64,000 nucleotides of DNA from Blasia pusilla (GCA_050084515.1 CM114271.1:28644001-28708000), one strand, 5' to 3'. Positions 7,140 through 64,000 are shown, counted from the stretch's first letter. Program-made: numbers and translations. The notes: a model not told the origin generated them from the sequence alone.

Positions 7140-7775
7140 TACGGATGCTCGTTGATCCCACCTTAAGAACTTAATAGTTGTCGTGCATACATACATCACT
7201 ATCAAAGAGTTGAAGGCAACTCAAGATGTCTTGAAGAATGTGATGAGAGATAGTTCTATTGTGATGATGGATCTTTCCGAATCTATTGTGGATATTCAAG
7301 AGAAGGCATCATTAGTAGCAACAACTTCCAATAGTTCCGGATTGCATGAGGTTGTTGAAACTTTGGAAGTGAGAATTAAATCTTACGTAGAAGTTACAAA
7401 GGTTGCCCATATCTCTTTCTTCCAAGAGCTAAAGATAGAAAAGTAAAAACAACCAATTTGCATGTAGGAAGAACGTGAGAATCTCCGGATCACCAAGAAT
7501 AGAAAATAAATAGGTAAATAATGTTGCCCCAAGTTCTTGGTTGATACACTTCACTTCATAATCCGAACTTGGCTCAAGCTTTTCGCATTGGGAAAAATGG
7601 TATACAACCTCACAATATTCTTGTTAAGTTTGTTGATCAAACTCAACACGATACCACTATGGCTAACAAGGCCATTCTAAAAAGAAGAAGGATATGGTTG
7701 GATCGCGATCTTACACCTCTACAGTTGATGTAGGGCGGAAGGAGCTTGCCAAGGTCAAAGAGGCTTAAGAAGCAT
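7140..7775 (+). mobile_element. LINE ORF1 fragment (coiled coil plus RRM-like region), decayed
   Basis: LAQAFRIGKNG...ILVKFVDQTQHD...IWLDRDLTPLQ; homologous to the minus-strand copy at 55904-56520, which sits next to endonuclease/RT sequence. Confidence 0.75.
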
Positions 7776-9153
7776 CTGGATCCCTCGCCTCCTTGGCCCA
7801 TGAACTGCCATCTCTAAATGAATGGAAATCTGGAGTTGGCCTTGATTCTTGCGATGGAATCCATTTCGGTCGTCTTTCCATCCAAAACTCGTATCTGACG
7901 CAGCAAATTCCGGAAGCATTCAGGATCAGCGAGAAATGCGAGATTTTCCCAGAGTTGTTTCTCCTCAACCGCCGTGATCTCGCCCTGTCCAGGGATTCCA
8001 AGCAATTGTTCACAAATTTGTGATGCCGTTGTGAGCTTGATCACTCCGGGCTTTGAACCCGGAGAGTTTCTGTAGACCTCGGCTACTTTCTTCGCCACAT
8101 CCTCCTTGATGTGTCTTTGAATTGCATCGTCACAGGATGAGTGTGGGAGCCAACATAGACAACCATCCTTGTATACTCTGACGTGGAGCCCAAGTCGTGG
8201 ACAATGAAAAATATGTATGCAGGACACGCTCCAACGCAGAAGGGCGATGCCTGACAATGAGGACATCGATGGCCTCCCGGCGGTATGGTGGCACCGACCT
8301 CGTATGGATTTTTTGCATTCTTGGGAGGGAATTACGACGTATTGACTCGCCCGTTGCGCTCTAGATACGGGCATGCTGGACTTCTACACTCCAAGGCTCC
8401 CACGCATTGGTGGCGGGAGACAATCCAAGGACCATCTCGAATTGAAGCACTGGTCCGTTGAAGAGTGCACCATTGATGACAATCGACTTTCGTCCCATAC
8501 CCTTCAGCGCCCTCCATCCTTATTTTGAGCAGGAGCAAAGCAAGTGGAGGCAACTCAAAAATGCAATTACCATAAATGCGTGGGCGGCTAAATGTCGACA
8601 AGAATGTGCTTGAACATTTTCAAGGCCAGAGACGAAAGCAAACTATTGCCTGATACTCGCAAGAGGAACGAGTAGGGGGACAGAGGGCCCGATTGGTGTC
8701 CGACAGATCCACTGAGGTTGATAACATCCGGAGTCTCTTCAGGAAAAACAACATTGTTACGAGCGTGCAAAGTTGGAGTCAAAGCCGGATCTGCAGAGCT
8801 TGGAGTTGCAAACGTAGAGCTTGGAGCACTAGGAAATTCTAGACGTCTACTTGTAAAACAGACGAATTCACGGGCAGGCCGTAAACTCTGTATTGACCAT
8901 TTGGTAGAGGTAGGAGATTCCATGCTTTACGGTCTGAGGTCACTGGCTGGACCGTCTGACCTATTATGTCTTCCGTACCGTCCACCCTAATATCTTTGGA
9001 TACAAAGATGGTTCCAATTTGAAGAAGAAATCGAACAGACAGAAAATTTTCATCCATTGCTATGAAAGACTCACGAGCTTGGGGTCGAATGATTTCCGAT
9101 TGAGGAAGGGCCGCCAGATGACTGCCACAAGTGAGCTTAACATAATTATCCAT
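7775..9153 (-). pseudogene. N-terminal half of a probable MULE-type transposase with a Cys/His-rich (GCM/CxC-like) domain; frameshifted, cut off by a LINE at about 7775
   Basis: Joined frames give GNCIFELPP...DCHQWCTLQRTSAS...CVGALECRSPACPYLERNGRVN...C..C...H...KVAEVYRNSPGSKP...SRFPFIQRWQFMGQG. The DDE core is not present in the window. Confidence 0.5.
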
Positions 9154-9415
9154 TCCAAGAAGATTCCAACGGGAGGAGATTGAGAATGAGAATATTTAAT
9201 TTCTAGTGAATAGGAAACAGATACTCCTGACAAATTTTTACTGACAAGATGAATTCGGTGGGTGACATTGTCTGACACAATGGATCCAATTCTGAAACAC
9301 ATTCAATTTTGTTGCAATATGTTACCGGATTTGGGAAGCAGAGGGTTGTGCATCACACTTGGAACCTGTCAGGAGTCCTGGCAACTCAAAAATTCCCCGA
9401 AGCTAACCGAAGCCT

Positions 9416-10078
9416 GCAACCCGTCAGCATCGGACGGGTTGCACGCTTATGCTAAACATTGTCGAAGCGAGCAACCCGTCCCTCTCCGACGAGTTGCTCG
9501 GATACCGCTCCTTCTTGCCCAAAGATGCCGGAGGCGTGCAAACCGTCTGTTCCCGACGAGTTCCGCGGGTGCCTCGCCTTTTAGCCCAAAGACGGCGAGG
9601 CGTGCAACCCGTCGCCCTCCAACGGGTTGCGCAAGGGCCTCGCCTTGTGGTGCAGCCAGCCAGACTCCGACGACTTGCACGGGAAGCCCTCGTCCTTAAC
9701 CCTTGATGAGGGAAGCGTGCAACCCAAAGGTCTCCGACGGATTGCCCAAGATTCGTCCCGTTCCCATCCCAAACACGGCGGAGGCGCGCAACATGTCGGT
9801 CTCCAACGGGTTGCGCGGGTACCTCGCGTTCTTTTCCGAAGACGACAGAGGCGCTCAACCCGTCGAAGACCGACGGGTTGCTCGCGCACGTGGCGACGTA
9901 CCCAGGATGGTGGAGGCGCGCAACATGTCGGTCTCCGACGGGTTGCGCGGGTACCTCGCGTTCTTTTCCGAAGACGACGAAGGCGCACAACCCGTCGGTC
10001 TCCGACGGGTTGCTCGCGCACGTGGCGACGTACCCAGGATGGCGGAGCCGCGCAACCTGTCGGGCTCCGACGGGTTGC
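9416..10078. repeat. Array of about 10 copies of the palindrome GCAACCCGTCGGnnnCCGACGGGTTGC at roughly 65-bp period, between the two divergent genes
   Basis: Copies visible near 9416, 9471, 9538, 9604, 9719, 9788, 9856, 9920, 9987 and 10052; includes a roughly 131-bp two-unit tandem duplication. Confidence 0.92.
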
Positions 10079-11671
10079 CATTTTTCACGTCCGGACTTCC
10101 GTAACATCCAGCACGTCGCCATCGAAAGGACGACGGGACCCAACGGTCAGCCCAACGGCTAGAACGTATAAACAGGGCAGAAATCGCTCATTTTCGGTTT
10201 CTCATTTTGCGATCTTCATTCCTCACTCTCCCGCGCAGCAGTTGATCAGATACGATGGGGCATTTCACACGGCCACACATCGCCAGTCGATAGGAGGGAA
10301 CGAGAGCGAGACCGTTTGACGCAACGACAACGAGACGGTTCGACCGAGCGATCGTGGGACGATTCGAGCTACCCATCAAGGCGATTCGAGCTCCCATCTC
10401 GACATCAGCAAGGCGACTGATCAAGGGATTTGTCGTGGACATAGGTGGAGGCATTTCCGGAAAAAATGACAAGGAAAAAATCACAAGCCAACAAGTTTAG
10501 GAGCTTCACTCCGAAGTCCATTAGGACTCCTGCGTCAGCTTCTCCTGGGCCTCGTTCGGCGAATGAAATTAGGTAGCAGGAAATCGAGGAGCGGGAAAGG
10601 GAAGCGGAGCTGCATAACCAAGTGCTTCTTGCGAGACGTGTTCAAGAGGCGCTAGATAAACAGAACGCACAGGCTGAGACGTCGCAGGCCTTGAAGAAAA
10701 GGATCGCCGGATTTAAAAGAGAGAAAGAAGCGCTGGGACGATCGGTGAGGAGGGCAGCATTGGCTAAAGCGAGGAGGGAAAAAGCGATAGCCATTGACGA
10801 TAGCCAAGCCCGTCCAACCGCAAGTGTTGAGATGCGGGAAATGTCCCCCACAAAGTCCGGGGACACAATCAACATAGTGGAAACGCCAGAAGTTGAAATC
10901 GATGACGACGAGGTATGAGGACCGCCTACGAGGAGATGGTGGACATGGCCGAAGAAGCCGGAGAGCGGTCATTCTCGACTCCAAGCCCGGCGGAGGACAT
11001 CGACCTCTATCGGATCGACGAGTTCGCAGTCGATTTGCCAGCTTCTGTCTAAGACAAGTTAGCTGGTCAAGAAACCGACCCCATTTTCGAGCGGGTAAGA
11101 GAGGTTCTGGGTTTTTTGAATTATGTGAATTGCAATTCATTGGGATTTCAGTGTAGCTTATTCCTCTTGTCCCGGTTCTGACAGGTGGTAAAGCAGATGG
11201 CACTCATGGAGGGCCACAACGCCCGAGGATTCCATCATGCGGATTGCGGACAATGGAATACGTCCGCAAATTTCATCCGCGAGGACATCGTGAAGCTAAA
11301 ACAATCGGCGGCGGCAAAGATCTCACGCCGACAACTTTCCTCCCTTCTATGTTTAGCCTTACGACGAGCATGGAACCCAAGCTGGTTACTGAGGAGGACT
11401 TGGAAAAGCTCGACACATTCTCGGAGGATGCGAGACCAGGACTTGAAGGCAAGTTGAGGGCACGGAATTCAGTTGGATGAGGAATGCATTTCTTCATCCG
11501 GGATGGAAATCACGAGTTCATGGCGTGGACCAAGTTTGCGGAGGAGCGGCCCAACTCATTGGAGGCACATTTCTGCGTGAAGGCAGTGGTCCTTCACCCA
11601 TACCCTCATCACATGGCGACGGTGGAGATGGCAATGCATGCCATGAACACGTGAGTATCTTTAACACTTTT

Positions 11672-12392
11672 GCAACTCGTCGGACTCCGACGAGTTGCTC
11701 GATTGATGAATGGGTTAGGTTTGTTTTTGCCGAAAGCAACTCGTCTGACTCCAACGGGTTGCTCGACTGCACGCTTTTTCGGATGTTTTTTTAAGATTGC
11801 AACTCGTCAGACTCCGACGAGTTGCTCGATTGATGAATGGGTTAGGTTTGTTTTTGCCGAAAGCAACTCGTCGGACTCCGACGGGTTGCTCGACTGCACG
11901 CTTTTTCGGATGTTTTTTTAAGATTGCAACTCGTCGGACTCCGACGACTTGTTTGATTGAACATAGATTTAACTAGTTTTTGGCCCAAAGCAAACCGTCG
12001 GAGTCCGACGGGTTGCTCGACACGCCGCCTTGTCAGGATGTTTTTTGAAGCTGTTTTTCCCCAAATCAACCCGTCGGAGTCCGACGGGTTGATTTCGCCC
12101 AAAAATAGTTTCGAGGCAAGCAACCCGTCGGACTTCGACGGGTTGCTTTGGGGAAAAAACCTTCTAAACCTGCAGTCACTCGAGCAACTCGTTGGAGTCC
12201 GACGAGTTGCATTCTTCAAAAAACATCCTCACAAGGCGGCCTATCGAGCAACCCGTTGGACTCCGACGGTTTGCTTACCAGGCATTAGCAAATCTAAATG
12301 CAATCCGTCGGACTCCAACGGGTTGCATCATTTAGCTCGTTGCTAGAATTCAACCTTGAGCTGTGACGACTCGTCGGAGTCCGACGGGTTGC
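11672..12392. repeat. Intronic array of about 12 palindrome copies (about 55-75 bp period)
   Basis: For example caacccgtcggagtccgacgggttg at about 12067 and gcaacccgtcggacttcgacgggttgc at about 12120. Lies inside intron 11651-12436 and includes a roughly 127-bp tandem duplication. Confidence 0.92.
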
Positions 12393-14538
12393 AAGAACCC
12401 ATGTAATTTCCTGACAGTTTGAGTTTGGATGTGCAGGATTGTATCGGAGGGGAAGGTCACCCACCACTGGATCCAGGACTGCGATCGGGTGAGGAAGGTG
12501 CTTACGACGTACGCGAGAGAGTACAGGGGGTTCTTGGGCGATGCCCTTGTCAATCAGATGCTTGCAAAGGGTGTTCAGATTAAGAAGAAAACTTGGGCAA
12601 ACAAGTTTATTTCTCAAGATGCAGCCGTAACCATCCTTTGCTGGTCGAAGATATAGGCCGTGAAGAAAAGCGTTGCACTGGAGCTGGAGCGGAGGGAGAA
12701 GGTATCTGCGTCTGAGCGCGCCAAATTCATCCAAGCTGCAGCACATGCTGCAACGAAATACACGGCGAGCAAGATGCAGCGATACATCAGCATTCTAAAC
12801 CCCGAACTTGGTCCGGAGTTCTACAAGGAGCTCAAGGCGATTATCAAGCGCCCGTGAAGAGGGATGAAGATCCGCATGGTCGGATTGGGAGAAAGTGTCA
12901 TTTGGATCGCGTGCATCGGTTTGCGTTGTCCGGGATAAGCGAGTTCAGGAGGATACGATCGATGAAAATCGATCTCGAGGGCTCAGAGGCCTAGAAGAGG
13001 GCGGCACACCATCCTCCGGTGTGTCCGATCCAGTGATCTCGCATTGGCTACGCCGAATGGTCGTTCCGGGACGCGCGTTGCGGGTAATCGGAAGTCCATC
13101 TTTGGACGATGCGCAAGCGAGCTCGAAGATTAGAGCCCATTCGCCGAAGCAAACCTTGAAAGTTCGGAGATCTCGAGGTTTGGTTCTACGACATCCGGAC
13201 AAGCCAACGAAAAACCAGGATTCAAGACCATGTTCAAGGTTTGCGTCCTCCCTCGGTGAGCTTGACGAAGAAGTAGAGGGGAACAAACGGGATCAAGCGA
13301 AGAAGAAGCGAGATCTACAGGAGCAGACGGCCGATTTTGTTTGACTAAAAGCTGCCCAACGGATGGTCTTCAGGTTCCTCATCCAGTGTAAGAACGCAGG
13401 TACGTGGGGAAAATTACCGGTAGCCTTGAAATTTTGGGCTTCGCCGCCGGATGCAAAGACATTCTCCATGTACGACGTGGAGATGGGGCAGCACATGTCC
13501 GATTGGGAGGTGGAGAATTGCCCCATTTGGCTCGACTTCAACGACCCTGAAGACATCACGGATAAGGACTTACGAGTGCTTCGTGATGCAGTGGCCTCAG
13601 GACAAGACGACATCCCCAATTTTGTCCTGCCTGAAGACTTCTTCGGAGGAGATGCAGTAGAGCAGGCCCACGAGACAGCTAAGTTGGCTTCCAAGGTCCG
13701 CACAGCCAAAGAAAAATCCACAGCGGGTCTCAAAGGCAAGGCGAGGGGAGGGAAAAATTCAGAGGCTGAGTCTTCCCAAAGAGAGGCTGAAGATTCAGGG
13801 CTAGAGGCGGAATCGTCCGGACGAGCGGGGAGAGAGGGTCGGACCAGGTCCTCGGCAAAAAAAACGCCACCAGAATTTGAGGTCATAGAAACCCCGACAA
13901 GCCGTCCCCAGGCTAGGGAGAAGTGGAAGCGAGAGGTGCCCGGGTTGTCCCAAGGAGTATACAGCCCATCATCCTTGGGAAGACACAGACAAACAACGAC
14001 CCGGACAAGCGTTCTCCTTCAGTTCACTCCTTTACTGGATGAGTGAAGGGCTTCAGTTCTCAAGCGTCGACACCAGCCATCAAAAAATTGACAACGCTGG
14101 AACGAAAGCTCCAACGAAACGGGCACGCTGCCTAGACGGTGAATGGAGTGGTCGAAGAGGTTGCGGTGGATCTCTTGATCACCGATCTGCCCTCGGGGTT
14201 GCGACTTTGGGGCGAGAATCCGTCGGACGAGGTACCTGAGTGGAATGTGCCACTCTCTTATGACCAGATTGCACTTTTGTTCTCCTTTGCAGACGCCTAT
14301 CTGAGTGACACGGGCTGGTTCTTGGTGTTGTCTGGAGGGAGCGAGGACGAGCTCTTCAACCTCCAGTGCGTCAAGAGGTCGCTAAAGTGGAGGACGACAC
14401 AATCGTGGATCATAACAAATGAGTACCCACTCCGATCCGCGACGAGTCAGATTCGGGTAAGGCTCAATTCCTGTTCTATAATTTCAATTATATTTTAATG
14501 ATGTGTATAATGAGAGTCAATCTGGGTTTTTTTCAGGA

Positions 14539-14837
14539 GCAACCCGTCGGAAGGCGGACGGGTTTCTTTAGAGAAGCCCATGCTCGGGTGAGAGCAACCC
14601 GTCGGTTTCGGCGGGTTGCATCTTTCCACATACAGGAAAACGCGGTGTACCTGCAACCCGTCGGAACCCGACGGGTTGCTGTTGCTTTTGGTTTTTCCCA
14701 GTTGATTTTGGTTTTTGGATGCAACCCGTTTGATAGCGACGGGTTGCTCTCACGCGAGCATGGGCTGCTCTAGGCCAGCAACCCGTCGCCTTCCGACGGG
14801 TTGCTCACGGAAAAAAACAACGGAGCCCGACGGGTTG
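14539..14837. repeat. Intronic array of 5-6 palindrome copies splitting the MTase-like domain
   Basis: Copies near 14539, 14594, 14653, 14721 and 14778, downstream of the GT donor at 14457. Confidence 0.9.
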
Positions 14838-16319
14838 ATCCAAAGTCTGTTATTGAAAATTTTCTCAAGGCGACTTCTTTAGTTTCTGACATTGTTTCCA
14901 ACGTCTTTGATTTGAGATGGACCGTCCCACGCTCATCGCTTCGGTTCGCCGAGCATAATTTCCAGGTGTTCAAGATCCAGGATCCTGTGGATCCATGCTC
15001 AGATGGGTATAGCTTAGATAGTTTGTACAATTCCCCCCCAAGAATTTACATGCAAGACAGTACCCCACTTCTGGGAGGAAGGGAAAAGTCGCCAGCCTTG
15101 ATGCAAACGCTCATCGAGCTCTGCTCAAGCCCGAGTGACTTGGTGTTCGACTTAGTGGGACATTCAGGGGCAAGTATCAAAGGCGCATGGCAGAGTGGCA
15201 AGAACATTCTCTGCTTCGAGTGAAGGCAGGAACTGTTTGACCTTTGCAAGGAGGCAAAGGCAGAATACGAAAGGCTTGTTGGGGCGTACAACTCTCCACC
15301 GGCCGAGCTCGGTTCAGAGCCACCCTTGGTAGTGACTCCATCGTCACTTCCAACGATTCCCAAAATCGGGAGGGCAAGGCCGAAAGTGATTTTGCAAGAG
15401 CTCTCCAACGATGATGAGTGAGTTCAAAGAACTCAACGACCCAGCTTGACTACAGCGTTTGGAGTAGGGAGTTTTTTTATAATGAGGCAAAAGATTTCAT
15501 AGAATAGATCAAATGTACAGTTCCAAGCTTTTTTCGGATGATATAAAGCAGAAGATTTTTTCGATCGATGGTGGTGCTTGTAAATGTTTGCTGATCATTT
15601 TTTGTCTTTTCGAATGTGATCGTCTCCACGGACTTCTATTTTGCAACCCGTCAAATTTCTCCTGCTTGCAACTTTCACTTTATGACCACTGCAACCCGTC
15701 GGATTTCTCCTCATTGCAACTTTTCGCTTTTTTACCACCTCCAGGCAACCTGTCTGATTCTGACAGGTTGCCTGATCGGACCCTTTCCCTGTTGGTCCAA
15801 CTTAAGAGGCAGTCTGGCGGGCTTCTTCCCTTGGCACCTTCCCCTCAACTTGTAGAGGCAGGCGTAGGCTTCTTTTCTTCTCTTAGACGTGTTGGATTCC
15901 TTCTACCTGTGCGGTTGCCATAATGGTATTACCGGGGATGGAGCAGATATTGATTGTCACATCTGAGTAGCCGATAGGCCGAGATCTATCGTGGATAGGG
16001 CGTAGGAGCCAACGGACTATCTTGAGTGTAACTTTGTCCCACAGTGTCGGATGAGGTTGAGGATAGGTCCATTGTGTCAGGACCGTCGTTTTTAACGACT
16101 TTGATGTTGAGGTCTTTTTGGTAGGGTGACTTGTTGACAGGTCACTGCCCTTGGTAACTGTCTTGCCTTGAGTTACCAAGGGAAGGGCTATTTTTAGGAG
16201 AAGAGCCTTTTGGCTCTTCCCAACCTATATAAGAGAGGCTTTATATGCCGATGTAGATTGAGGAGTGGAGTTTTAGGCCGGGTGTGCCGTTTTTACTACT
16301 CTTTATTTTTACATGAGAA

Positions 16320-23960: not shown

Positions 23961-25220
23961 TGATACTGGATGGGTGTCACATTGCGGAGCGTACAAGGTA
24001 TACTGCCGAGGAAGGCGGTGGGACTCGAGACAGGTTACATGGGACCGTTATGGTGTACCTAGTGGGGGCCAAGGCTCTCGAATTCGCCAACATTTTCGAT
24101 CCCCGTCTACAATCGGCCAAAGGAGCCACTTGAATCCCAGGACATTCCTTTGGTACCGTCACCGAGGAGAGTTAGGAGTAAATTTGTAGATGACGAGGCT
24201 GAAGAAATCATAGACTAGGTGAAATGTATATTTCCGAGGTTCCTTCGGAGGTAATAAAGGACGAGATTTTTTCAACCCATAATGGTGTTTGTAAAAGTTT
24301 GCTGGAATATGTTTTTGGACTTGTGGATTGTGTTCTTTTAGCTACTCAAAATTACAATTTCGCAACCCGTATGATTCGACTTTTGCTTTTTGCTTTGCTA
24401 CTTTTAACCATTTCCACGCAACTGCCGGATTCGGCAGGTTGACTCGCTTGAGTGATCGGACTCTATCGGTGAGACCAACTTCTGGCGCATTGTGGCGGGC
24501 TTCTTGACTTTTGGCTCGTTCCCCTTCATTCGTCCAACCAGTTGTAGGCTTCTTTTCTTGTCTAAGATGTGCAGGATTCCTACTACATGTCGGATAGCCA
24601 TTTCGGATTCCCAACCCGTTAGATCGTCGTGGGTGCAGGGTGGAAGAAAATCACTTCTAAAAATCTTTCCTTTCTTATGGTGAGCTTTCTTACGGGTTGG
24701 GAGGGGTGCAGCTTCTCGGTTTCTCAACCTAAGGATCTGATTTGTTCACATTTGAGAAAGTTTGTCTTGAGCAGACACCATTCATAACCGACAGAAAGTA
24801 GGTTATAGGGCAATTTAGGGGAGGCCATGATGCAGGCAACAATCCCTGCAAAAAGAGAGGTACCCATCCAGGTGGTCCTCCAACAAAAATACCAAGGGCA
24901 CTGCTTTTTGTTGACCGAGACAGGGAATGTTAAGAAACTTAGGCTCACATGGAGAGTGATGGAAAAATGTTTAGGGTGGTCTTATGATGTCTCCTTTTTT
25001 CTCGCCCCCAGGAAAGAGGAGGTTTTTTAGGGCCAAATGTGGACCAGTAAATACTCTCTTCTTAAGATTTCCTGAATTTCAAAGCAAACAAAAATTTCAA
25101 ATATGTCAAAAAGTTTTGAAGAGAGGAGGCGGATTTGGCCTTTTTTTTTTTAAGAGAGACTCTCCTCTCTTCCTCTCTTCCTCTCCTCTCTTACTCTCTC
25201 TTGTCAGAATACCAGCCCCC
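23961..25220 (+). mobile_element. DNA transposon copy C: terminal about 1.26 kb of the palindrome-bearing element
   Basis: Aligns by eye with 47300-48939 (with an internal difference) and ends in a CT-rich tract plus GAATACCAGCCCCC. Confidence 0.85.
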
Positions 25221-29776: not shown

Positions 29777-29779
29777 GGG

Positions 29780-40944: not shown

Positions 40945-43100
40945 AAAAATTTAGCATATACAAAATTAATCATATGAATTTTTTTCAAGGGATGAAGTAT
41001 TACAAAGTCTAAAAAAGCATACCAATATAACACTTGACACATGTAATGTTATTTTAATTTTAATTTAGCACTTCATTATATACAACATTCCTAGTGTAAA
41101 CACCTATTTTGTTAATAGCCTTTTCATTATCTGTCATAATATGAATAGAATTCCTAGAGCCTACTCTTGACAAGGCAACATACAATTGCCCATGAGAAAA
41201 TATTGGATTAGACAAGTAGATACCAACTCTATCTAATGTTTGACCTTGAGACTTATTAATCGTCATTGCAAAAGCAGGACGTATAGGAAATTGAAATCGT
41301 CGCAAATCAAAAGGTAGGCCACAATCAGACGCAATCAATGGAATGCGTGGAATGAAAACTCGAGCTCCGATGTTTTTTCCTGTGATAATTTTTGCATCTA
41401 TAAGATGTCTACTAAAGCCAGCTATCACCAACCGAGTCCCGTTTGCTTGTCCCTTGGCTCCATTCATATTCCGTAATAGCATTATCGGAGCTCCAATCTT
41501 CAAAGTCAAACAATGAGGTGGCAGTCCAGATGGTAAACATGTGTTCAAAAATTATGTCAGATAAACAAGTCTCATCTCATCGTGGGAAACAGTATCAGCA
41601 CTCAAGAAAGTATGCTCCAGCAAAAACAAAATAAATCATTAATAATAAGAGCGATGATAGAAAAATGTAGCAATAGGTAATGAAAATATAATAATGATAT
41701 TCAAAAACATAAATATTACCTCTCCTGGAAATCGAGACATGATTTCCGCATTTATAATATCCACAGTTGTATTCTTGGTTGACAAAATGGATGTACCCCT
41801 CAAGAAATCAATGTCACTCCACTTATTAACATCGTGTCCATAAACAACGTCAATGAGATCATTCATCCTTGTCGTTTTTACAATTATCGCATCCGGAACT
41901 TGTATAAAATCCTCTCCAAGGTCCAAATGTAATGGTACTCCACCCTCTCCTATCTTTAGTAACCACGTTGCAAACGCTTCTTGCTCTTCTCGTGCATATC
42001 CTACAAAAAATATAAGATCAAGAAATGAGTACATATTAAAAATTTAAAAAAACTACATGAAATAAAAAAGGAAAAATATTAGGTTAATTCTTAAATACCT
42101 TGTAAAGTATTAACTCTCATGTTGGTAGTGAGTTTCAATAATCTCACGTGAGACCAAATAAGAGATCTCCTCAATGTTGCACGCACAATTGTAGCACGAT
42201 CTCCACGACGAACAACTAGAAGAAATTGTCGAAAGTCACCACCGAATAAAATGATCTTCCCCCCAAAAGGCAAGTCTCGTAATCGAGTATCCGTCAAACC
42301 CATGATATCTTGCAAAGTACGATTAACGGCCTCGAATGCATGACGATGGGTCATGCTTCATAGGAGCTTCATCCCACACGATCAACTTCGCCTTTTGTAT
42401 AAGGCGGGCCATATGACTATTGACCGATAGGCTAGAAAATAGATAACAAAACAATATGTGAGGAACATTTATGAAGGATAAATCTAAGAATATAACAATA
42501 ATATGCATGCCATAATTATAAAGTAAAAGGAAACAAAATCTTAAATCTAGACTTACTTGCAAGTGGAGCTTTCATGTACTTGAATAGGAATCTTGAATCG
42601 AGAATGAGCAGTACGACCTCCATCCAATAATAAAGCGGCAATTCCTGAAGATGCAACTGCAAGAGCTATATGACCCTCGCTCCGTACCATTGCAAGAAGA
42701 CGGTTGTACAAAACGGTTTTTCCCGTTCCCCTAGGACCATCGATAAAGAAAAGTTTTTCCTGAAAATCCATATTTGTAGTCACAAAAATGCACTTTAAAA
42801 AGAATAAAACTTAAAGAGATTTAAAGAGTAAAGAAGTCATCTTAAAATTTACTATGCATAATATCCACTTATAGAAGGTGGCGCATCTTGTAAGATATCG
42901 TGAAAAGCATTACAAATAACTTCCCAAATAGCTCGTTGTCCATCATTTAAAGATATCTCTTCTGCTCTCACACGTTCACAAAGCATATCATGATCGTAGC
43001 AGAGCTCTTCCTCTTCTAGACGCGAAATAGATAAATTACGAGCTTGGAAATCTGGTTGAGGCATGTCGGGGAAGTCCGCCATACTCTTACCATGATCTTG
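40923..43100 (-). mobile_element. Helitron 3' part with intron-containing PIF1-type helicase pseudogene (43100-41060); Rep domain absent
   Basis: [82 protein letters not shown]; frameshift near 42350; Helitron 3' end about 135 bp past the stop. Confidence 0.92.
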
Positions 43101-43276
43101 AAACCATAGGTACATGTCGTGGACGCAGTTTGCAGAGGAGTGCCCAAATTCATTGGAGGCGCATTTTTGCGTAAAGGCAGTCGTGCTCCATCCATTTCCT
43201 CATCACATGGCAACGGTGGAAATGGCGATGCATGCGATGAATGCGTAAGTTTCCTCTTCCTTAAGTTTGATTTCTT

Positions 43277-44014
43277 CAACCCGTCGGAGTCAGACGGGTT
43301 GAATAATTGGAAAGCTTAAAGATGGGCAGGAATGATTTGAGTCTCTTGCCACCATCCTGTTTATGGTCAATGTCAAATATAGTCAAGCAAACCGTTGGAG
43401 TTCGACGGGTTGCCTGGTGGCCAAGCACACCAAATTAATCCGGGATATTGACACTAGTCGAACATCAATGGGTGGAAAACTGACAGCATGATTTATTTGT
43501 TCTGCAATCCATCGGACTCCAATGAGTTGCACAACGAGAGGTAACAAATCATCAAGCGCCTAAAAGCAACTCGTCGAACTCCAACGGGTTGCATCCCCCC
43601 CCCCCCTCCCCAAGGGTAGGTGGTCCGAGTACGAGAGCTTGCTTTTAGGCATCAAATTCCAGCTTTACAAGGCATCGCGCAACCCGTCGTACTCCGACGG
43701 GTTGATATGTGCAATTTTTTTCCGGAAACCTGTCTCCAAATTGAAGTCATTCTACAACCCGTCGGAGTCCGACGGGTTGTAACCAAGGACTAAATCGGTT
43801 GGACCAGAAAGTCACGAAAAGAGAGTGTAACCCGTCGGACTCCGATAGGTTGTAATTCTCTCTAAAAATTTCAAGAGTGTTGCAATAAGTGTAACACAAA
43901 GATACGTGTTGCGACCCATGAGACTCCGACGGATTGCAATATTTATCTCTGTGCTACCATTTCGATCCCCATAGGTTGACAGAATTACAACCCGTCGAAA
44001 CCCGATAGCTTGCA
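43277..44014. repeat. Intronic array of about 9-10 palindrome copies with mutually unrelated spacers
   Basis: Copies near 43277, 43387, 43503, 43566, 43679, 43754, 43827, 43911 and 43988. Confidence 0.9.
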
Positions 44015-46111
44015 GTATTCTTACCTTGTGTTTGGATGTGCACGATTGTATCCGAGGGCAACATCACCCACCATTGGATCCAAGATTGCGACAAGGTGAA
44101 GAAGATGCTTACGACGCACCCGGCAGAGTACAAGGGATTCTTGGGCGACAGTTTGATAAATGAGATGATGGCGAAGGAAGCTCAAATAAAAAAGAAGACT
44201 TGGGAAAATACCTTCATTTCCCAAGATGCAGCCATCACAATCCTATGTTGGTCCAAGATAATGGCCGCCAAGAAGAGTGCTTCCTCAGAACTGGAGCGGA
44301 GGGAGAACGTGTATGCGTCGGAAAGTGCAAAGTTTATTCAGGATGCCGTATCTGTAGCTACAAAGTACATTGCAAGCAAGAGGCAGCGATACATTGCAAT
44401 TCTCAACCCCGAACTTGGCCCGGAGTTTTACACGGAGCTCAAGGCGATAATTAAGCGCCAACGGAAGAGAGACGAAGATCCATAGGGTCGGATCGGCGAG
44501 AAAGTGTCTCTGGACCGCGTGCACAGATTTGCGCTTTTTGGGATATCCGAGTTTAGGCGAATCCGACTGATGAAAATCAGTCTCGAGGGCACTGAGGCCC
44601 AAAAGCGGGTGGCACACAATCCTCCAACAGTTTCAGATCTAGTGATCTCCCATTGGCTACGAGAATGGTCATTCCGGGACGCGTTGCGTCTTCTCGGGAA
44701 GTCCATGCTCGTGGGTCTTCAAGCGGAGCTGAAGAAGATTGAGCTAGTTCCAGAGGAAGCAAACCTAGAGGCTATAGAAGATTTTGAACTATGGCTTGAT
44801 TACATCAGAGATAAGCCCACGAAAAACCGAGGATCCAGGATGATGTTCAAGAATCACATCCTCCCTCAAGCAGACCTGGATGAGGAAATAGATGCCAAAA
44901 AATGGGATTTTGCAAAGAAGAAGCGGGATCTTCAGGACCAGGCGGCCGAGTCATCTTGACAAAGAGCTGCCCAGCAGATGGTGTATAGGTACCTTATCAA
45001 TTGTAAGAATGCAAGTACCTGGAAAAAATTACCGGCAAATTATCGGCTTCTCCGCTTGATGGAGAGGCATTCTCCATGTACGACATGGAGATGGGGTATG
45101 TCCGACTGCGAGGTTAATAATTGTCCAATCTGGTTGGACTTCAACAACCTAGAGGACATTACAGAAAAAAATCTACGCGTGGAGTATGATGCAGTGGTCG
45201 CAGGTTGGGACGACATTCTGAAATTCGTGCAACTTGACAATTTTTTCGGAGGAGATGCGGAGGAGCAAGACCTCAAGACAGCGGAGTTGGTGGGCAAAGT
45301 CGTCACCGCCAAAGACAAATCCACAGCGGGTTTGAGGAAGGCGAGGGGATCAAGGAATTCTAATGCGGAGTCTTTCAGAAAAGAGGCTGAGTCCTTAAGG
45401 CAAGAGGCGGAATCGTCCGGGGGAGCGGGGTGAGAGGGCCGGACCAGGTCCTCGTCCAAGAAAACTCATGTGGAGTGTGAGGTAACAGAGACTCCCACAA
45501 GCTGACAGCAGACTCATGAGAAGCGAAAGCGGGATGCGTCTGGTTTGTCTGAGGGAGGAGATAAGGATGTGGAATACACTCCATCATCCTTGGGCACGAA
45601 TAGGGAAAAAACCACCACGACAAATGTCCTTGTTCACTTGACTCATCTTGTTGATGAGCTACAGAGTTTCAGTTCTCAGGAGTTAACATCTGCCATCGAC
45701 AAATTGACCGTGCTCGACAAAAACTCCTTCGAAACTGGCACGCCCCTTGGATGGTGCATAGGGTGGTTGAGGAGGTGGCGGTGGACCTCCTCATTTTGGA
45801 TTTGCCTTCTGCGTTTTGCTTGTGGGACAACAATCCGTCTGACACTGTCCCAGACTGGAATGTCCCGCTTTCGTACGATCAGATCGCGTTGTTGTTTTCT
45901 TTTGCCGACGCGTATCTGAGTGACAGGGGTTGTTTCTTGGTTCTCACTCGAGGGAGCGAAGATGAGCTCTTCAACCTTCAGTGCGTGAATAGGTCACTGA
46001 AGTGGAGGATGGCACAATCATGGGTAATTAAAAAAGAGTATCCACTCCGATCGGCGACGAGTCAAGTCCGGGTAATTTCTCTTATTCAACAAATTGAGTT
46101 TAATAGAAATT

Positions 46112-46610
46112 CAACCCGTCGGGCTTCGAAGGGTTGCATCTTTGCATGCAACCCATCGGATCCCAACAACTTGTGTCTGCGGTGTTGCAATCCGTCTGAA
46201 AGTGATGGGTTGCAAATTCACCAACAAGTCTCCATTGACTACAACCCGTCGGAACCCGACGAGTTGCAAGTAGCATTGCTTTTCCCCGTGTTTCTGGAGT
46301 GATGCAACCCATCTGAAAGTGATGGGTTGCTCTTATATTAGGAACTTCTCAACTTTGAACAATTATATTCAGTTGTAAGCCAACCATTGCACTCGAAACG
46401 GTGGAGTTTCTGTCCAGCAAGATGAGCAACATTTCGGCTTCCGACGGGTTGCTCATGGCCAAAAAGGAGTCTTAGAGTTGTAAGACAACCCGTCGGACTC
46501 CGACATGCCACGGTTCTGTCAAGCCTATAGGCCTAGTTTAGAGGAGTTGGTAATTACTATGGACTAGTATGACGGGTTGAAAAGCAACCCGTCGGATCCC
46601 GACGGTTTGC
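46112..46610. repeat. Intronic array of about 8 palindrome copies
   Basis: Copies near 46112, 46149, 46188, 46241, 46304, 46430, 46486 and 46584. Confidence 0.88.
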
Positions 46611-48939
46611 ACATTGCGTCAATTTATGGAGAGTAGATCAGCCATCTACTAGGTTTTTTTTTTTTGTTGACATTATTTTTTACCTGCTTGTTTACAGATA
46701 GACCACTAATTTGTCTAATGCTTTGTAAGGCTTGAGCACAACTTCCAGGTATTCTAGATCCCGGATCCAGTGGATCCATGCTCCGATGGGTACAACTTAG
46801 ATAGTCTCTATTATCCCCCCACCCTCCCCTGGGAATTTACATGCAAGACGGGACCCCCTTACTTGGAGGAAGGGAAAAGTCACCTGCCTTGATGTAAACG
46901 CTCATTGAGCTCTGTTCGAGGCCGGGTGACTTGGTCTTTGACTTAGTGGGCCTATTAGGGGCGAGTATCAGAGGCACCTGGCACAATGGCAGGAACATTC
47001 TCTGCTTTGAGGGAAGGCCAAAACTTTTTGACCTTTGAAAAGAGGCAAAGGCGGATTATGAGAGGCTAGTGGGAGTATAAAACTCTCCTCCAAATCCAAC
47101 AGCTCCGGTTCCAGAACCACCATTAATAGTGACACCATCGTCACTTCCTACTATTCTGAAAATCGGGAGGGCAAAGCCGACAGTAATTCTGGAAGAGTTA
47201 TTCGACGATGACGAGTGAGTTCAAAGATTTATTGGACCCAGCTTGACTGAAGCGTTTTGGAGTAGGGATTTAGTGCTTTCCAAGGATGGAGCACATATTG
47301 ATACTGGATGGGTGTCACCTTGCAGAGCATACAAGATTTACTGTCGAGGAAGGCGTTGGGACTCAAATCATGTTACACGGGACCATTATGGTGTACCTAG
47401 GGGGGGGGGGCCAAGGCTCTCAAATTCCCCAATATTTTTTAATCCTCGTCTACAATTGGCCAGAGGAGCCACTTGTATCCCAAGACATTCCTTTTGTAAA
47501 GGAAACTAGGAGAGTTAGGAGTAAATTTGTAGATGACGAGGCTGAAGAAATCATAGACTAGATCAAATTTATATTTCAGAGCTTCCCTTGGATGTAATAA
47601 AGGACACGAAGGTTTTGAACCATGATGGTTTTTTTAAACTTTTGCTGAATTATTTTTCGTTCTTGTCAATTGCGTTGGTCTATCTACTCGAGGCTGTTTA
47701 TTTTGCAACCCCTCAGATTCCGACGGGTTGCATCTTGTCACAATATTTTAAACCCCTTGCACGCAACTTTTCAGATTCCGACAGGTTGGCTACTTGAGTG
47801 ATTCCACTCTTTTCTTGTTAGTCCACTTTTTCAGGCTCTCGTATTTTGGCAGGCTTCTTCACTTTTGCCTCGTTCCCCCATTATCGTCACACCATTCTTC
47901 TCTAACACGGTATTTCATAGACGTGTTGGATTCCTACTACCTGTCGGATTCTCATGTCAAATTCCCAACCAGTCGGATTCTCATGGATTGCAAGGTGGAA
48001 TGGAATCACTTCTCAAGATCCTTCTTTTGTTGTGGTGTGCTTGCTTGCAAGGGATGCATTCCATCGGATTCCGATGGGTTGGAAGGGATGCAACCTGTCG
48101 GATTCTGACATTTAGGGTCTGAATGAAGGGACATGGGTGCATCAGTTCCTCTTTCCTCCTGACAGCTATCAATCTTTTGACGCGATTATCCTCTCAATCT
48201 CATCACATTTTCTTCTTGATGCATATATTTCTCAGTGGCTGAGAGAATGGTGAAACCAAGTTGTCAAATGCATAGCACTCCATGGTATAATTTATGCATC
48301 CATTCATGAGCCAATATCATCCAATGTTGTCATGAAAGTCTTCGGCTACCATCAGTGATGAGTGATTTGTTTTGTTGTGGAAAACCCCCTCATGGATGAG
48401 TATTGATCGGATGGGATATTCAATGCCTTTTGCAAGAAGAGTCAACAATCCATAATGTCAACCACATCTTCAGAGAAGTTAAACCTTAAAGGGCACAGGA
48501 GTCTATTGAGACCATAGTTAGAGTCTTTATTTGAACCTTTCATTGAGATGAAATTGCTACTTCTGGTCATATTATATGCCGACGGTCCTCCAACAATAAT
48601 ACCCCTCAGCCCGACTTACTATAGAGCTGGCTTAGACATGCAATGTGAAGAAAATTGGGTTCACATGGAGAGTGATGGAAGAATGTTTGTAGTGGTCTTA
48701 TGATGTCTACTTGTTTTTCCGAGCCTGGAAAAAGAACGTTACTTTAGGCCCGGATGTGGTCCACTTGCTACTCTCTTATGAAGATTTCATGAATTTGAAA
48801 GCAAACAAAAATTTCAAAATTGTCAAACAAATTTGAAGAGAGGAGGCGGATTCTGCCCTCTTTTTTTTTAAAGAGAGACTCTCCTCTCTTCCTCTCTTCC
48901 TCTCCTCTCTTACTCTCTCCTGCCTGAATACCAGTCCCC

Positions 48940-56825: not shown

Positions 56826-58060
56826 TTGATGACAAAGTCCCCAAGCTTGACGGCATTAGGAGAGCATGCGGCACTTTCCTAAACAAGAACTGTACAAGGA
56901 CTGGACGACCACTGGCTGGGTTTTGGGGACTCAAAACCTTTGATCGTTTCACAAGAACCGGGGATCAATTGAAGTACTTCTTCTACCCAAATGAATCTTG
57001 CGCTTTCTGGAAGTCTTATCCGGCCGCCATTGGAGCTCCGGGGAATATCCCCACGATTTGGCCCATCGCCGCAGGTACGAACTGCACTCAAGACGAAGTG
57101 GACAATCTTACAAGTGGTTTTGAGACTCGAGCGGGAAGTTCGGAGCATGTTAGCATTCAGAGTCCTTTGCATTTCGTATTCAACCCAAGATTGATGTCAA
57201 CATGTACCCGGAGAAGGTGGATGATCTCAATCCACTATTTATGTTTGAGTCTAGAAATGGGGTGAAGAGAAACAGAATGTGTAGGCCAACGGTGGAGAGA
57301 GCAAAGCGAATTGCATCAGCTCGAGAGGCAAAAATGGAGATCATCGCCACGAAAGATGTCTTGAGTGGCAATGGAATAGGAAGGATGTATTGGGTGGGAA
57401 CAACATTTGTAAATTCAAGTGTCACAGGGTGTATGTGGTGCACATCTGTTGCTTTCCCACATGTTCATGTGATGACTTTGTCCAAAGAGAGACAAGTGGC
57501 AAAAGGTATTTCCCTTGTAAGCACATGTACTATGTGTTGCTGGTAGTTTTAAGAGAGTCGGAGGTAGGAGTAGGAATCCACCAACCAATTCTGTCCCTCA
57601 AAGAAGTGCAAAGTATTTTAAACAAACCACTTTGAGGATGCAAAATGAGGTTTTAGATTGTACTTTCATTTTTCAAGAACCATCACTTTGAGCTTGAACT
57701 CTATTCAGCGTAGGGCAAATGGTAGATTGTTTCCAGACCTTGGATGGAAAAAGTGATTGGTTCCACACTTATGATTCCAGTGATTTTTCAGTTTTGTATA
57801 TTTTGTGCAATTTGCAACCGGTCGGACTCAGATGGGTTGCCAAAATATGGAAGAGAAAAAAAAAACGATGGGACTGCTTAATAACTGAACAAAAAAGTGC
57901 AAAAAAATTCACACAAAAAGTTTCCTCTCTTCAACCAAACGAAAATCTTCAAAAAAAAGTATCTATTTCGGTTGAAGGTAGTTTCCTCTCTCCTCTCTCC
58001 TCTCTTCCTCTCTCCTCTCTTCTCTCTTCCTCTCTTCCTCTCTTCCTCTCCTCTTACTGC
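56825..58060 (+). mobile_element. C-terminal SWIM zinc-finger end of a probable MULE-type transposase (stop at about 57634), followed by one palindrome and a CT-rich subterminal tract
   Basis: YVVHICCFPTCSCDDFVQRETSGKRYFPCKHMYYVL (CxC...CxH); gcaaccggtcggactcagatgggttgc at 57814; tract 57984-58057 resembles the tract at the other termini. Confidence 0.65.
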
Positions 58061-62931: not shown

Positions 62932-62938
62932 TCTGCCC

Positions 62939-64000
62939 GGGGGCTGGTAATTTAGCAGGAGAGAGTAAGAGAGGAGAGGAAGAGAGGAGAGTCTCTGTTA
63001 AAAAAAGGGCACAATCCGCCTCCTCTCTTCAAAACTTTTTGACATTTTTGAAATTTTTGTTTGCTTTCAAATTGATGAAATCTTTAGAAGAGAGTAGCAA
63101 GTGGACCACATTCGGGCCTAAAGTAACCTTCTTTTTCCAGGCTGGGAAAAACAAGTAGACATCATAAGACCACTACAAACATTCTTCCATCACTCTCCAT
63201 GTGAACCCAATTTTCTTCACATTGCGTGTCTAAGCCAGCTCTATAGTAAGTCGGGCTGAGGGGTATTATTGTTGGAGGACCGTCGGCATATAATATGACC
63301 AGAAGTAGCAATTTCATCTCAATGAAAGGTTCAAATAAAGACTCTAACTATGGTCTCAATAGACTCCTGTGCCCTTTAAGGTTTAACTTCTCTGAAGATG
63401 TGGTTGACATTATGGATTGTTGACTCTTCTTGCAAAAGGCATTAAATATCCCATCCGATCAATACTCATCCATGAGGGGGTTTTCCACAACAAAACAAAT
63501 CACTCATCACTGATGGTAGCCGAAGACTTTCATGACAACATTGGATGATATTGGCTCATGAATGGATGCATAAATTATACCATGGAGTGCTATGCATTTG
63601 ACAACTTGGTTTCACCATTCTCTCAGCCACTGAGAAATATATGCATCAAGAAGAAAATGTGATGAGATTGAGAGGATAATCGCGTCAAAAGGTTGATAGC
63701 TGTCAGGAGGAAAGAGGAACTGATGCACCCATGTCCCTTCATTCATACCCTAAATGTCAGAATCCGACAGGTTGCACCCCTTCCAACCCGTCGAAATCCG
63801 ATGGGTTGCACCCCTTGCAAGCAAACACACCACAACAAAAGAAGGATCTTGAGAAGTGATTCCATTCCATCCTGCAACCCATGAGAATCCGACTGGTTGG
63901 GAATTTGACATGAGAATCCGACAGGTAGTAGGAATCCAACACGTCTATGAAATACCGTGTTAGAGAAGAATGGTGTGACGATAATGGGGGAACGAGGCAA
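62939..64000 (-). mobile_element. DNA transposon copy D, inverted terminal region; runs off the window
   Basis: Near-identical reverse complement of about 47870-48939; begins GGGGGCTGGTAATTTAGCAGGAGAGAGTAAGAGAGG; palindrome at about 63784. Confidence 0.9.

What the first reader, a model, noticed from the sequence alone, without database searches (positions are those of the whole stretch)
11651..12436. Palindrome conserved while spacers are not: orthologous introns of copies A and B share only the 27-bp motif
Seen: intron 11651-12436 (about 12 copies) and intron 43245-44043 (about 9-10 copies) sit at the same coding position. Their spacers look unrelated, yet both keep GCAACCCGTCGGAnTCCGACGGGTTGC at about 55-110 bp spacing. 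The same holds for 14457-14900 versus 46072-46700. Inference: the motif is maintained by selection or actively re-seeded, as expected for a protein-binding site (parS-like for the ParB-like protein, or transposase/MTase target) or for RNA hairpins in the pre-mRNA. It keeps several CG sites despite visible C>T decay.
Basis: partly seen in the sequence, partly recalled or inferred. Interest (0 to 1): 0.8.

Follow-up and report, generated by a model that had tools for sequence, protein, structure and literature searches.

The report
Conserved palindrome arrays inside a transposon
A 27-base palindrome is repeated in arrays through every non-coding part of a high-copy mobile element and has stayed nearly unchanged while the DNA between the copies has randomised, which is the pattern expected of binding sites for a protein that acts on the element itself.

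Summary
GCAACCCGTCGGANTCCGACGGGTTGC has 29 matches at 3 or fewer mismatches (0 expected) and 53 credible profile hits. Of these, 52 lie in four copies or fragments of one repeat family, and none lies in 6,154 bp of coding exon. Introns 11651-12436 and 43245-44043 sit at the same codon position of two diverged copies (74% exon identity).

Codon-position identity is 80.7/81.2/60.6%, so the copies diverged under protein selection and neutral sites are near saturation. That explains the unalignable spacers: 0 of 88 A-B spacer pairs are related. The palindromes stay 78-81% alike between copies, like non-synonymous sites.

Central-triplet variants are specific to each array and shared between copies. 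No target-site duplication is seen. Conservation stops exactly at the 27-bp edges. Together this points to descent with constraint, not re-seeding by a micro-transposon. There is no excess of compensatory pairing, so the sequence is conserved rather than a hairpin.

Best reading (about 0.5): arrays of dyad-symmetric protein-binding sites, analogous to the VANC target arrays of Arabidopsis VANDAL elements. The binding protein is unknown. The element's own large protein is only weakly ParB-like and methylase-like.

The parts
9416..10078 (.). Array A1: 11 palindrome units, about 66 bp apart, commonest central triplet TCT. It lies upstream of a TATA-like box at 10167-10172 and of the recognisable coding sequence of copy A.
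   Evidence: TRF period 132 x 2.3 copies, 92%
11202..11650 (+). Exon of copy A encoding the ParB/Srx-like region (DGNHE here, DGNHR in relatives). It has one in-frame stop.
   Evidence: tblastn of Riccia relatives, P0001 residues 146-322, E 2e-6
11651..12436 (+). Intron 2 of copy A, the finding itself. It is filled by array A2, 12 units at 11672-12392, all with centre A[C/G]T. The array contains 127-bp tandem duplications and an inverted duplication centred near 12105.
   Evidence: the protein alignment is interrupted exactly here
12437..14456 (+). Large exon of copy A. It is decayed, with several frame changes and stops.
14457..14916 (+). Intron 3 of copy A with array A3, 6 units at 14539-14838.
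   Evidence: 2 RNA reads of run X20 from a paralogue join 14456 to the sequence that starts at 14917
14917..15560 (+). Last coding exon of copy A, the methylase-like motif I region. The end coordinate is approximate.
   Evidence: Pfam N6_N4_Mtase E 0.01, 16.2 bits, below the cutoff; tblastn
15643..15771 (.). Array A4: 3 decayed units, centre ATT, downstream of the coding sequence. Copy A loses similarity to the other copies at 15921.
43100..43244 (+). First retained exon piece of copy B. The copy is 5'-truncated at about 43100, next to a Helitron-type helicase on the minus strand.
43245..44043 (+). Intron 2 of copy B with array B2, 9 units at 43276-44013; 8 of 9 have centre A[C/G]T. Spacers are unrelated to each other and to copy A. 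The 3' splice AG is mutated to AC.
44044..46071 (+). Large exon of copy B, with two in-frame stops and then a frame change.
46072..46697 (+). Intron 3 of copy B with array B3, 8 units at 46111-46610. Units 46241 and 46304 are orthologous to 14653 and 14721.
47705..48116 (.). Array B4: 4 to 5 decayed units, centre ATT, in the 3' non-coding part of copy B. The element's 3' end is at 48940.
23961..25220 (+). Fragment C: a 5'-truncated copy holding only the 3' part of the element. It shares the 3' terminus with B and D. Only faint motif relics are present.
62938..64000 (-). Fragment D: an inverted copy of the element's 3' part, 95.8% identical to 47865-48940, with units at 63749-63926. It is cut by the end of the window.
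57814..57840 (.). Solo unit, the only credible one outside recognisable element DNA.

Best explanation
The 27-bp palindrome is a cis-acting, dyad-symmetric DNA site, most likely bound by a dimeric sequence-specific protein. It is carried in arrays in every non-coding segment of a high-copy mobile element: the upstream region, two introns and the 3' region. The arrays were already present in the common ancestor of copies A and B.

While the element lineages were active, selection kept the sites. The spacers drifted to saturation, and the arrays turned over by local tandem and inverted duplication.

Shown here: the differential conservation, the descent of the arrays, the confinement to the element's non-coding DNA, and the absence of hairpin covariation.

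Inferred: that a protein binds the site; that it is the element's own large protein, which has a ParB/Srx-like region and a methylase-like region; and that the purpose is self-recognition of the element, for example anti-silencing or marking of its own chromatin, as with VANC in VANDAL elements.
For: 1. Enrichment. There are 29 matches against 0 expected. 52 of 53 credible units lie in the 16,310 bp of element-derived DNA (binomial p = 5e-30), and 0 lie in 6,154 bp of coding exon.

2. Differential conservation. Exon identity between A and B is 74.1%, with codon positions at 80.7/81.2/60.6%. Palindromes are 81.0% alike between A2 and B2, or 78.4% in aligned columns, against 46.1% for spacers and 41.9% for a shuffled control. 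The orthologous unit pair scores 47 of 54 against 15 of 41 for its spacer, p = 3.5e-7.

3. Descent, not re-seeding. The centre is A[C/G]T in 12 of 12 A2 units and 8 of 9 B2 units. It is ATT in 3 of 3 A4 and 4 of 4 B4 units, and TCT in 6 of 11 A1 units.

4. A discrete module. Information content falls to background at the edges of the 27 bp. Positions 2-4, 9, 19 and 24-26 are almost invariant, with 1-4 changes in 56 units.

5. DNA rather than RNA. There is no excess pairing (83.2 vs 83.0% in shuffles; both-side changes in 11 cells vs 7.3, with 52 of 500 shuffles as high). C>T (47) is not favoured over G>A (56). Array A1 lies upstream of a TATA-like box.

6. Precedent. VANC21 binds a short motif that accumulates as tandem repeats in introns, upstream and terminal non-coding regions of VANDAL21, with gain and loss between copies (PMC5735166, passages read).
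Against: - No binding protein is identified and nothing about binding could be tested.
- Both copies in the window are dead (stops, frame changes, a lost splice site), so the constraint is inferred from the past, not the present.
- Units were recognised by their likeness to the consensus, so strongly decayed units are missed and conservation is somewhat overestimated.
- Arm changes are dominated by C/G positions (179 of 194). That is a mutational signature and says nothing about function.
- In arrays 3 and 4 the units are only 76-84% identical to the consensus.
- The genome-wide distribution could not be examined because no genome is held.
- The protein's ParB-like and methylase-like character is weak: no Pfam match above cutoff, VIA Z of 3.9, and a second model too poor to use.
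Confidence: 0.5

Rival explanations
1. By-product without function. The palindrome-bearing unit is a minisatellite that expands and contracts by slippage or unequal exchange, which hairpins would favour. The palindromes look conserved only because new units keep being copied and because decayed units are not recognised.
For: Arrays A1, A2 and A3 show recent duplication: 8 of 45 A1-A1 and 12 of 55 A2-A2 spacer pairs have z>5, confirmed by TRF and by inverted arms of 133 nt. A DNA contig variant (depth 177 in run X4) lacks 184 bp between unit edges 12092 and 12277. The decay spectrum is mutational.
Against: Copy B has no tandem structure at all: 0 TRF rows, and 0 of 28 B2-B2 and 0 of 10 B3-B3 spacer pairs are related. 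Yet its units keep 84-85% identity to the consensus. Duplication copies spacers too, so it cannot by itself give conserved units in random spacers. The orthologous pair 14653/14721 and 46241/46304 keeps its palindromes while the spacer between them has randomised.
Confidence: 0.2
2. A structural hairpin or cruciform. The unit acts as a folded single strand, either as an RNA hairpin in the pre-mRNA (splicing, stability, retention) or as a DNA hairpin recognised during replication or transposition, as with HUH-type enzymes.
For: The arms are perfect 13-nt inverted repeats. Three of the four arrays of copy A lie in transcribed non-coding parts. A few RNA reads carry two units with a different spacer: 5 reads in each of the two RNA runs (X19, X20). 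Hairpins are general recognition elements of HUH endonucleases (PMC10288648, passages read), and a Helitron-type helicase lies beside copy B.
Against: There is no covariation beyond chance and no bias toward G-U-compatible changes. In arrays 2 and 4 the symmetry is conserved up to the dyad (A13/T15), which cannot pair across a 1-nt loop. Array A1 lies upstream of a TATA-like box. No Rep or HUH domain was found in the element, and no unit lies in the Helitron. There is no Rfam family.
Confidence: 0.15
3. An independent micro-transposon. The 27-mer is a minimal TIR-TIR element that keeps inserting into this region.
For: Units occur in both orientations, with centre C or G. There is one solo unit at 57814. 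DNA contigs join units to other spacers.
Against: 0 of 56 units have a 3- or 4-bp target-site duplication, and 5 of 56 have a 2-bp one against 3.9 expected. Flanks carry no conserved bases. The central variant is specific to each array and shared between A and B. 52 of 53 units lie inside the element and none lies in the Gypsy, Helitron or host-gene DNA of the window.
Confidence: 0.05

Closest known systems
VANC target-motif arrays of Arabidopsis VANDAL21/VANDAL6 (Mutator-like) elements (PMC5735166; passages read)
   Same: [quoted passage not shown] It often occurs as tandem repeats that are gained and lost between related copies. The motif is specific to the element family.
   Different: The VANC motifs are 8-9 bp and not palindromic; here the motif is a 27-bp perfect palindrome. 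No VANC, MURA or any transposase domain was found in the ORFs scanned here. Binding and hypomethylation are demonstrated for VANC and untested here. In VANDAL the motifs change quickly between subfamilies, whereas here the same motif persists across copies whose third codon positions are only 60.6% identical.
Bacterial ParB-parS (and KorB-OB) loading sites
   Same: Short palindromic DNA sites, often in several copies, recognised by a dimer. The element's protein has a conserved DGNHR motif (11 stored relatives) and a weak structural match to KorB (8qa8_A: Z 3.9, rmsd 3.8, 91 residues, model residues 151-302). By language-model features, ParB_N clusters appear at rank 12 with score 0.92.
   Different: parS is 16 bp and of another sequence (as stated in an abstract listed; the sequence itself is recalled). 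No Pfam ParB_N hit, no HTH domain and no ParA partner were found. The host is a eukaryote. Z of 3.9 is within the noise range given by the tool.
Subterminal transposase-binding repeats of En/Spm (TnpA sites) and Ac (recalled, no paper read)
   Same: Multiple copies of a short protein-binding motif, in both orientations, inside the element.
   Different: Those repeats are confined to about 200-300 bp at the two ends. Here the arrays fill internal introns as well, and no transposase is known.
Minisatellites and foldback-type repeat arrays
   Same: Copy A arrays have 127- and 132-bp tandem periods and an inverted duplication.
   Different: Copy B arrays have no repeat structure outside the 27-mer.
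Beta-class N6/N4 DNA methyltransferases in liverworts (MpDN4MT1a/b, bioRxiv 10.1101/2021.02.12.428880; passages read)
   Same: A prokaryote-type methylase domain order (motif IV before motif I) in a plant protein. Relatives give weak PF01555 hits (best E 9.4e-6, 26.2 bits).
   Different: MpDN4MT1 has the catalytic TSPPY. This family has D[LM]P[ST]G at that place and scores below Pfam's cutoff. This family is multi-copy and element-borne.

Membership tests
TE-internal binding-motif arrays of the VANC/VANDAL type | Motif accumulated in the element's own non-coding regions (introns, upstream, terminal) | tested here: met
   52 of 53 units lie in element DNA and 0 in 6,154 bp of exon. Arrays lie upstream (A1), in two introns and in the 3' region.
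TE-internal binding-motif arrays of the VANC/VANDAL type | Arrays formed and remodelled by tandem repeat gain and loss between copies | tested here: met
   Met in copy A (TRF; spacer relatedness) and by the unit-number variant in DNA contigs. Copy B shows no tandem structure.
TE-internal binding-motif arrays of the VANC/VANDAL type | Motif bound by a protein encoded by the same element | not testable with these tools
   Needs EMSA, DAP-seq or ChIP.
TE-internal binding-motif arrays of the VANC/VANDAL type | Element is a VANDAL (Mutator-like) with VANA/VANB/VANC genes | tested here: not met
   No MULE, transposase or VANC-like Pfam domain in the 50 window ORFs scanned. No terminal inverted repeat between the putative ends.
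ParB-parS system | Protein with a ParB N-terminal (ParB/Srx) domain | tested here: inconclusive
   No Pfam hit. DGNHR is conserved in 11 relatives. VIA Z is 3.9 to KorB. Language-model rank is 12 at 0.92, behind DUF3723 at 0.96.
ParB-parS system | 16-bp parS consensus | tested here: not met
   The site is 27 bp with 13-nt arms. The parS sequence is recalled, not fetched.
ParB-parS system | Sequence-specific binding and CTP-dependent spreading | not testable with these tools
   Biochemistry needed.
MITE-like micro-transposon | Target-site duplication flanking each unit | tested here: not met
   0 of 56 at 3 and 4 bp; 5 of 56 at 2 bp against 3.9 expected.
MITE-like micro-transposon | Dispersed in unrelated genomic contexts | tested here: inconclusive
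   1 of 53 units lies outside the element within this window. No genome is held for a census.
Structured RNA hairpin family | Compensatory changes that keep pairing | tested here: not met
   83.2% of cells are paired against 83.0% in shuffles (220 of 500 as high). 4 pairs have both-side change against 5.0 expected.
Structured RNA hairpin family | Match to a curated RNA family | tested here: not met
   0 Rfam matches at gathering score in the whole window.
N6_N4 DNA methylase (PF01555) | Pfam score above the gathering cutoff (26.7 bits) | tested here: not met
   Window ORF 16.2 bits. Best relative 26.2 bits. 4 of 30 relatives hit at E<=1.
N6_N4 DNA methylase (PF01555) | Catalytic motif IV (D/N/S)PP(Y/F/W) (recalled definition; TSPPY quoted) | tested here: not met
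   D[LM]P[ST]G in 6 relatives and in both window copies (DLPSG, DLPSA).
N6_N4 DNA methylase (PF01555) | Rossmann-type methylase fold | tested here: inconclusive
   The model of the C-terminal domain has mean pLDDT 46.9 and was not searched.
Simple tandem repeat (minisatellite) | Head-to-tail units whose whole length is alike | tested here: inconclusive
   Met in copy A. Not met in copy B.

The most novel reading that the evidence does not exclude
A eukaryotic mobile element carries its own 'parS-like' system. The arrays would be loading sites, spaced every 1-3 kb along the element, for its ParB/Srx-like protein. That protein would clamp or spread from them and bring its methylase-like domain, or a partner, over the whole element. 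The element would thereby mark itself, or shield itself from the host's silencing. The GANTC centre of arrays 2 and 4 could be the site acted on by the methylase-like domain. That GANTC is the site of CcrM/HinfI-type enzymes is recalled, not tested.
Probability: 0.12. Interest if true: 0.85.

Novelty: new variant of a known kind. Interest (0 to 1): 0.55.

Why it matters
This would be a second, independent case, in an unclassified element probably of a bryophyte, of a transposon that keeps arrays of a private recognition site in all its non-coding DNA. The only worked-out example is VANC/VANDAL in Arabidopsis.

This site is long (27 bp), perfectly dyad-symmetric, and stable across deep divergence within the family. 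That makes it an unusually clean handle for finding the protein that reads it by DAP-seq or EMSA. It also allows a test of whether an element-borne ParB-like and methylase-like protein, of bacterial type, has been put to use in eukaryotic genome conflict.

The protein family itself is uncharacterised. The search of 1.84 billion representatives gave 27 matches. All 12 of the 16 looked up that carry a name are hypothetical proteins of one liverwort.

Tried and rejected
- Whole-genome census: impossible, because no genome is held.
- Earlier findings of this scan: nothing by place, by sequence or by words.
- Metagenome scans. The 22-base core gave 0 hits. The arms with a variable centre gave 6 loci, each with a single unit in 56-62% GC contigs. 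I take these as chance hairpins, so they are uninformative.
- Sequencing runs: no RNA holder was listed.
- RNA reads. When laid, the two RNA runs gave only 74 and 70 reads on 10 kb, and most fitted only in part. Splicing of this copy, its transcription start and its expression could therefore not be established. Only 2 reads from a paralogue show removal of intron 3. Several DNA 'joints' between units have sides of only 21-28 letters. These are probably units matched to the wrong unit, and I did not count them as deletions.
- Protein, by sequence: search of solved structures with one relative and with the family profile gave only low-complexity or chance hits. NCBIfam gave nothing useful.
- Protein, by structure. 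The full-length model of relative P0001 had mean pLDDT 55.9, with residues 310-700 above 90. Foldseek against PDB gave no match at E<=0.001. VIA wide gave no Z>=5.
- C-terminal domain model: pLDDT 46.9, too poor to search.
- Transposase: none found in the 50 window ORFs scanned, so the element's class stays open. The common 3' end with 5'-truncated copies, and the lack of terminal inverted repeats, do not settle it.
- CRISPR-like reading (27-bp repeats with spacers of roughly 21-49 bp in copy A, most near 37-40): rejected. The setting is eukaryotic, copy A's spacers are duplicates of each other, and copy B's spacers measure 35-90 bp.
- Arm-to-arm correction within a hairpin as the source of conservation: rejected, because pairing is not in excess.
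- Complex prediction: not used. It takes no DNA, and no protein pair is claimed to bind.
- Literature: word searches found no description of this motif or element. Sequence motifs cannot be searched there, so this is weak evidence of novelty.
Full report
**What is there.** The motif GCAACCCGTCGGANTCCGACGGGTTGC has 29 matches at 3 or fewer mismatches in the 64-kb window, against none in 100 shuffles. A profile built from 30 units finds 53 credible units at E<=0.05.

The units form arrays:
- In copy A: 9416-10078 (A1, 11 units), 11672-12392 (A2, 12 units), 14539-14838 (A3, 6 units) and 15643-15771 (A4, 3 units).
- In copy B: 43276-44013 (B2, 9 units), 46111-46610 (B3, 8 units) and 47705-48116 (B4, 4-5 units).
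- In an inverted fragment: 63749-63926.
- One solo unit at 57814.

No Rfam family matches anywhere in the window.

**The setting.** The arrays lie in two diverged copies of one gene.
- Copy A has GT at 11651 and AG at 12435-12436. Copy B has GT at 43245, and its 3' AG is mutated to AC. Both introns interrupt the same codon.
- The second intron pair is 14457-14916 and 46072-46697.
- Alignment with the nearest protein relatives runs straight across both positions, and the gaps in the tblastn hits coincide with the arrays.
- Two RNA reads from a paralogue show intron 3 removed. The RNA data are otherwise too thin to say anything about this copy.
- Both copies are dead, with stops and frame changes.

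The gene belongs to a highly repeated family:
- 39,265 contigs of DNA run X1 and 2,933 of run X4 lay on the 10-kb stretch at 95% likeness or more.
- Summed depth is in the thousands over about 7668-16351, against 2-60 at 16686-17000.
- The window holds four copies or fragments. B, C and D share the same 3' end (48940, 25220 and 62938 reversed). C is 5'-truncated; D runs off the end of the window, so its 5' extent is unknown.

I found no transposase and no terminal repeats, so the class of the element is open.

**Why the spacers do not align.** Over the large exon, A and B are 74.1% identical. By codon position the identities are 80.7, 81.2 and 60.6%. The copies are therefore members of lineages that diverged while the protein was under selection. 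Neutral sites are close to saturation, so unalignable spacers are expected.
- 0 of 88 A2-B2 and 0 of 20 A3-B3 spacer pairs are related.
- In a global alignment of intron 2, spacer columns are 46.1% identical, against 41.9 +/- 1.7% for a shuffled partner.

**Why the palindromes are remarkable.** Against that background the units are 81.0% alike between A2 and B2, or 78.4% in aligned columns. That is as conserved as non-synonymous positions. It holds even though the units are GC-rich and C/G positions mutate about four times as often as A/T positions.

The clearest case is in intron 3. Units 14653 and 14721 are orthologous to 46241 and 46304, sharing unusual centres and similar spacing. They match at 47 of 54 bases, whereas the spacer between them matches at 15 of 41 (p = 3.5e-7).

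Conservation is confined to the 27 bp: information content drops to background at both edges.

**Tests between explanations.**
- *Duplication alone.* Copy A arrays do contain recent tandem duplications (periods 127 and 132) and inverted duplications. Copy B arrays have none and still keep units at 84-85% identity to the consensus. Duplication would copy the spacers as well.
- *A mobile micro-element.* There are no target-site duplications (0 of 56 at 3-4 bp) and no conserved flanks. The central triplet is specific to each array and shared between the copies: A[C/G]T in 12 of 12 and 8 of 9 units, ATT in 3 of 3 and 4 of 4. The arrays therefore descend from ancestral arrays and were not re-seeded from one master.
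- *A hairpin.* Pairing is not kept better than in shuffles (83.2 vs 83.0%). Both-side changes are not significantly in excess (11 vs 7.3 cells, with 52 of 500 shuffles as high). Symmetric C>T and G>A hot spots in a palindrome mimic compensation anyway. Wobble-compatible changes are not favoured (47 vs 56). In arrays 2 and 4 the symmetry reaches the dyad, where a hairpin could not pair. Array A1 lies 90-750 bp upstream of a TATAAA at 10167-10172, which I identified by eye.

What remains is a duplex, dyad-symmetric site. Its best-kept bases are at positions 2-4 and 24-26, and at 9 and 19. This is the pattern of a site read by a symmetric dimer.

**The element's protein.**
- A read-through translation of copy B (X at the stops) found 27 matches among 1.84 billion representatives, the best at E 2e-15 and 24-30% identity.
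- I looked up 16 of them. The 12 that carry a name are all hypothetical proteins of the liverwort Riccia sorocarpa, and 4 are unnamed.
- The full-length relatives in the set (P0001, P0030) have about 1,200 residues.
- 11 relatives carry a DGNHR motif, which is DGNHE in copy A.
- D[LM]P[ST]G stands where beta-class methylases have their catalytic motif.
- The C-terminal region gives PF01555 hits just under the cutoff.
- The ParB-like character is weak: Z 3.9 to KorB and a language-model score of 0.92 at rank 12. It ranks behind DUF3723 at 0.96.
- DUF3723 is a conserved cargo gene of fungal Starship elements (bioRxiv 10.1101/2021.12.13.472469, passages read).
- The central 400 residues are predicted with pLDDT above 90 as an all-helical domain, with no fold match.

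So 'ParB-like' and 'methylase-like' are leads, not findings. Nothing links the protein to the palindrome except that they travel together.

**Comparison with what is known.** The nearest worked-out system is VANC/VANDAL (PMC5735166, passages read). [quoted passage not shown] The repeats are gained and lost between copies.
- The anatomy here is the same.
- Membership is excluded: the element is not a VANDAL, the site is a 27-bp palindrome, and it is stable rather than fast-changing.

parS, subterminal transposase sites and minisatellites each share one feature and fail others (see the membership table).

**Limits.**
- No genome, so no census.
- Only two informative copies.
- Units were ascertained by likeness to the consensus.
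- No binding data.
- The organism is unknown. I infer a land plant, probably a bryophyte, from the relatives and from an LCAT-type host gene.
- Supplementary files of the papers were not seen.

Noticed in passing
window 20051-20935 and 58441-59411, with 21683-23476 and 59414-62438: An ORF with a C-5 cytosine DNA methylase match (PF00145, E 8.7e-7) lies directly upstream of Gypsy-type RT, RNase H and integrase sequence, in two diverged copies (65.6% identical). A retrotransposon that carries its own DNA methyltransferase would resemble cases I recall from algae and dinoflagellates; no paper was read on this.
   Followed up: partly
window 41060-43100, minus strand: Helitron-type (Pif1-like) helicase ORFs, identified by eye from the translations, abut copy B exactly where its 5' part is missing (about 43100). 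The Helitron may have inserted into the copy or captured a piece of it.
   Followed up: no
relative P0001, residues about 310-700 (corresponds to window 12437-13900 and 44044-45400): The central region of the element's protein is predicted with pLDDT above 90 as an all-helical domain. It has no fold match: Foldseek gives nothing at E<=0.001 and VIA wide gives no Z>=5. It may be a fold not yet in the PDB.
   Followed up: partly
relative P0030, residues 150-330: By protein language-model features, the region around the DGNHR motif is closest to fungal DUF3723 clusters (score 0.96), a conserved cargo gene of Starship giant transposons. It is closer to those than to ParB_N clusters (0.92). No HMM hit supports this.
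   Followed up: partly
window 15955-16310: A separate short repeat with the highest DNA depth of the stretch (summed depth 58,884 in X1). It has RNA reads on both strands and sharp read boundaries at 15955, 16238 and 16310. It interrupts or replaces the 3' end of copy A.
   Followed up: no
window 38163-39101 and 39651-40118, minus strand: An apparently intact host gene of the LCAT/phospholipase family (PF02450, E 6.9e-41), with at least one intron, lies between the repeats.
   Followed up: no
window 16000-31000: Sustained positive GC skew (0.13 to 0.29) over 15 kb, together with a 1.8-kb direct repeat (27523-29292 and 29785-31571, 85% identical) only 500 bp apart.
   Followed up: no
window 10052-10078: The last unit of array A1 has a private G at 10064. 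Nearly all other family copies in the DNA runs (1,786 of 1,868 summed depth in X4) and all 10 RNA reads covering the position have A. That restores the GGACTCC centre.
   Followed up: no
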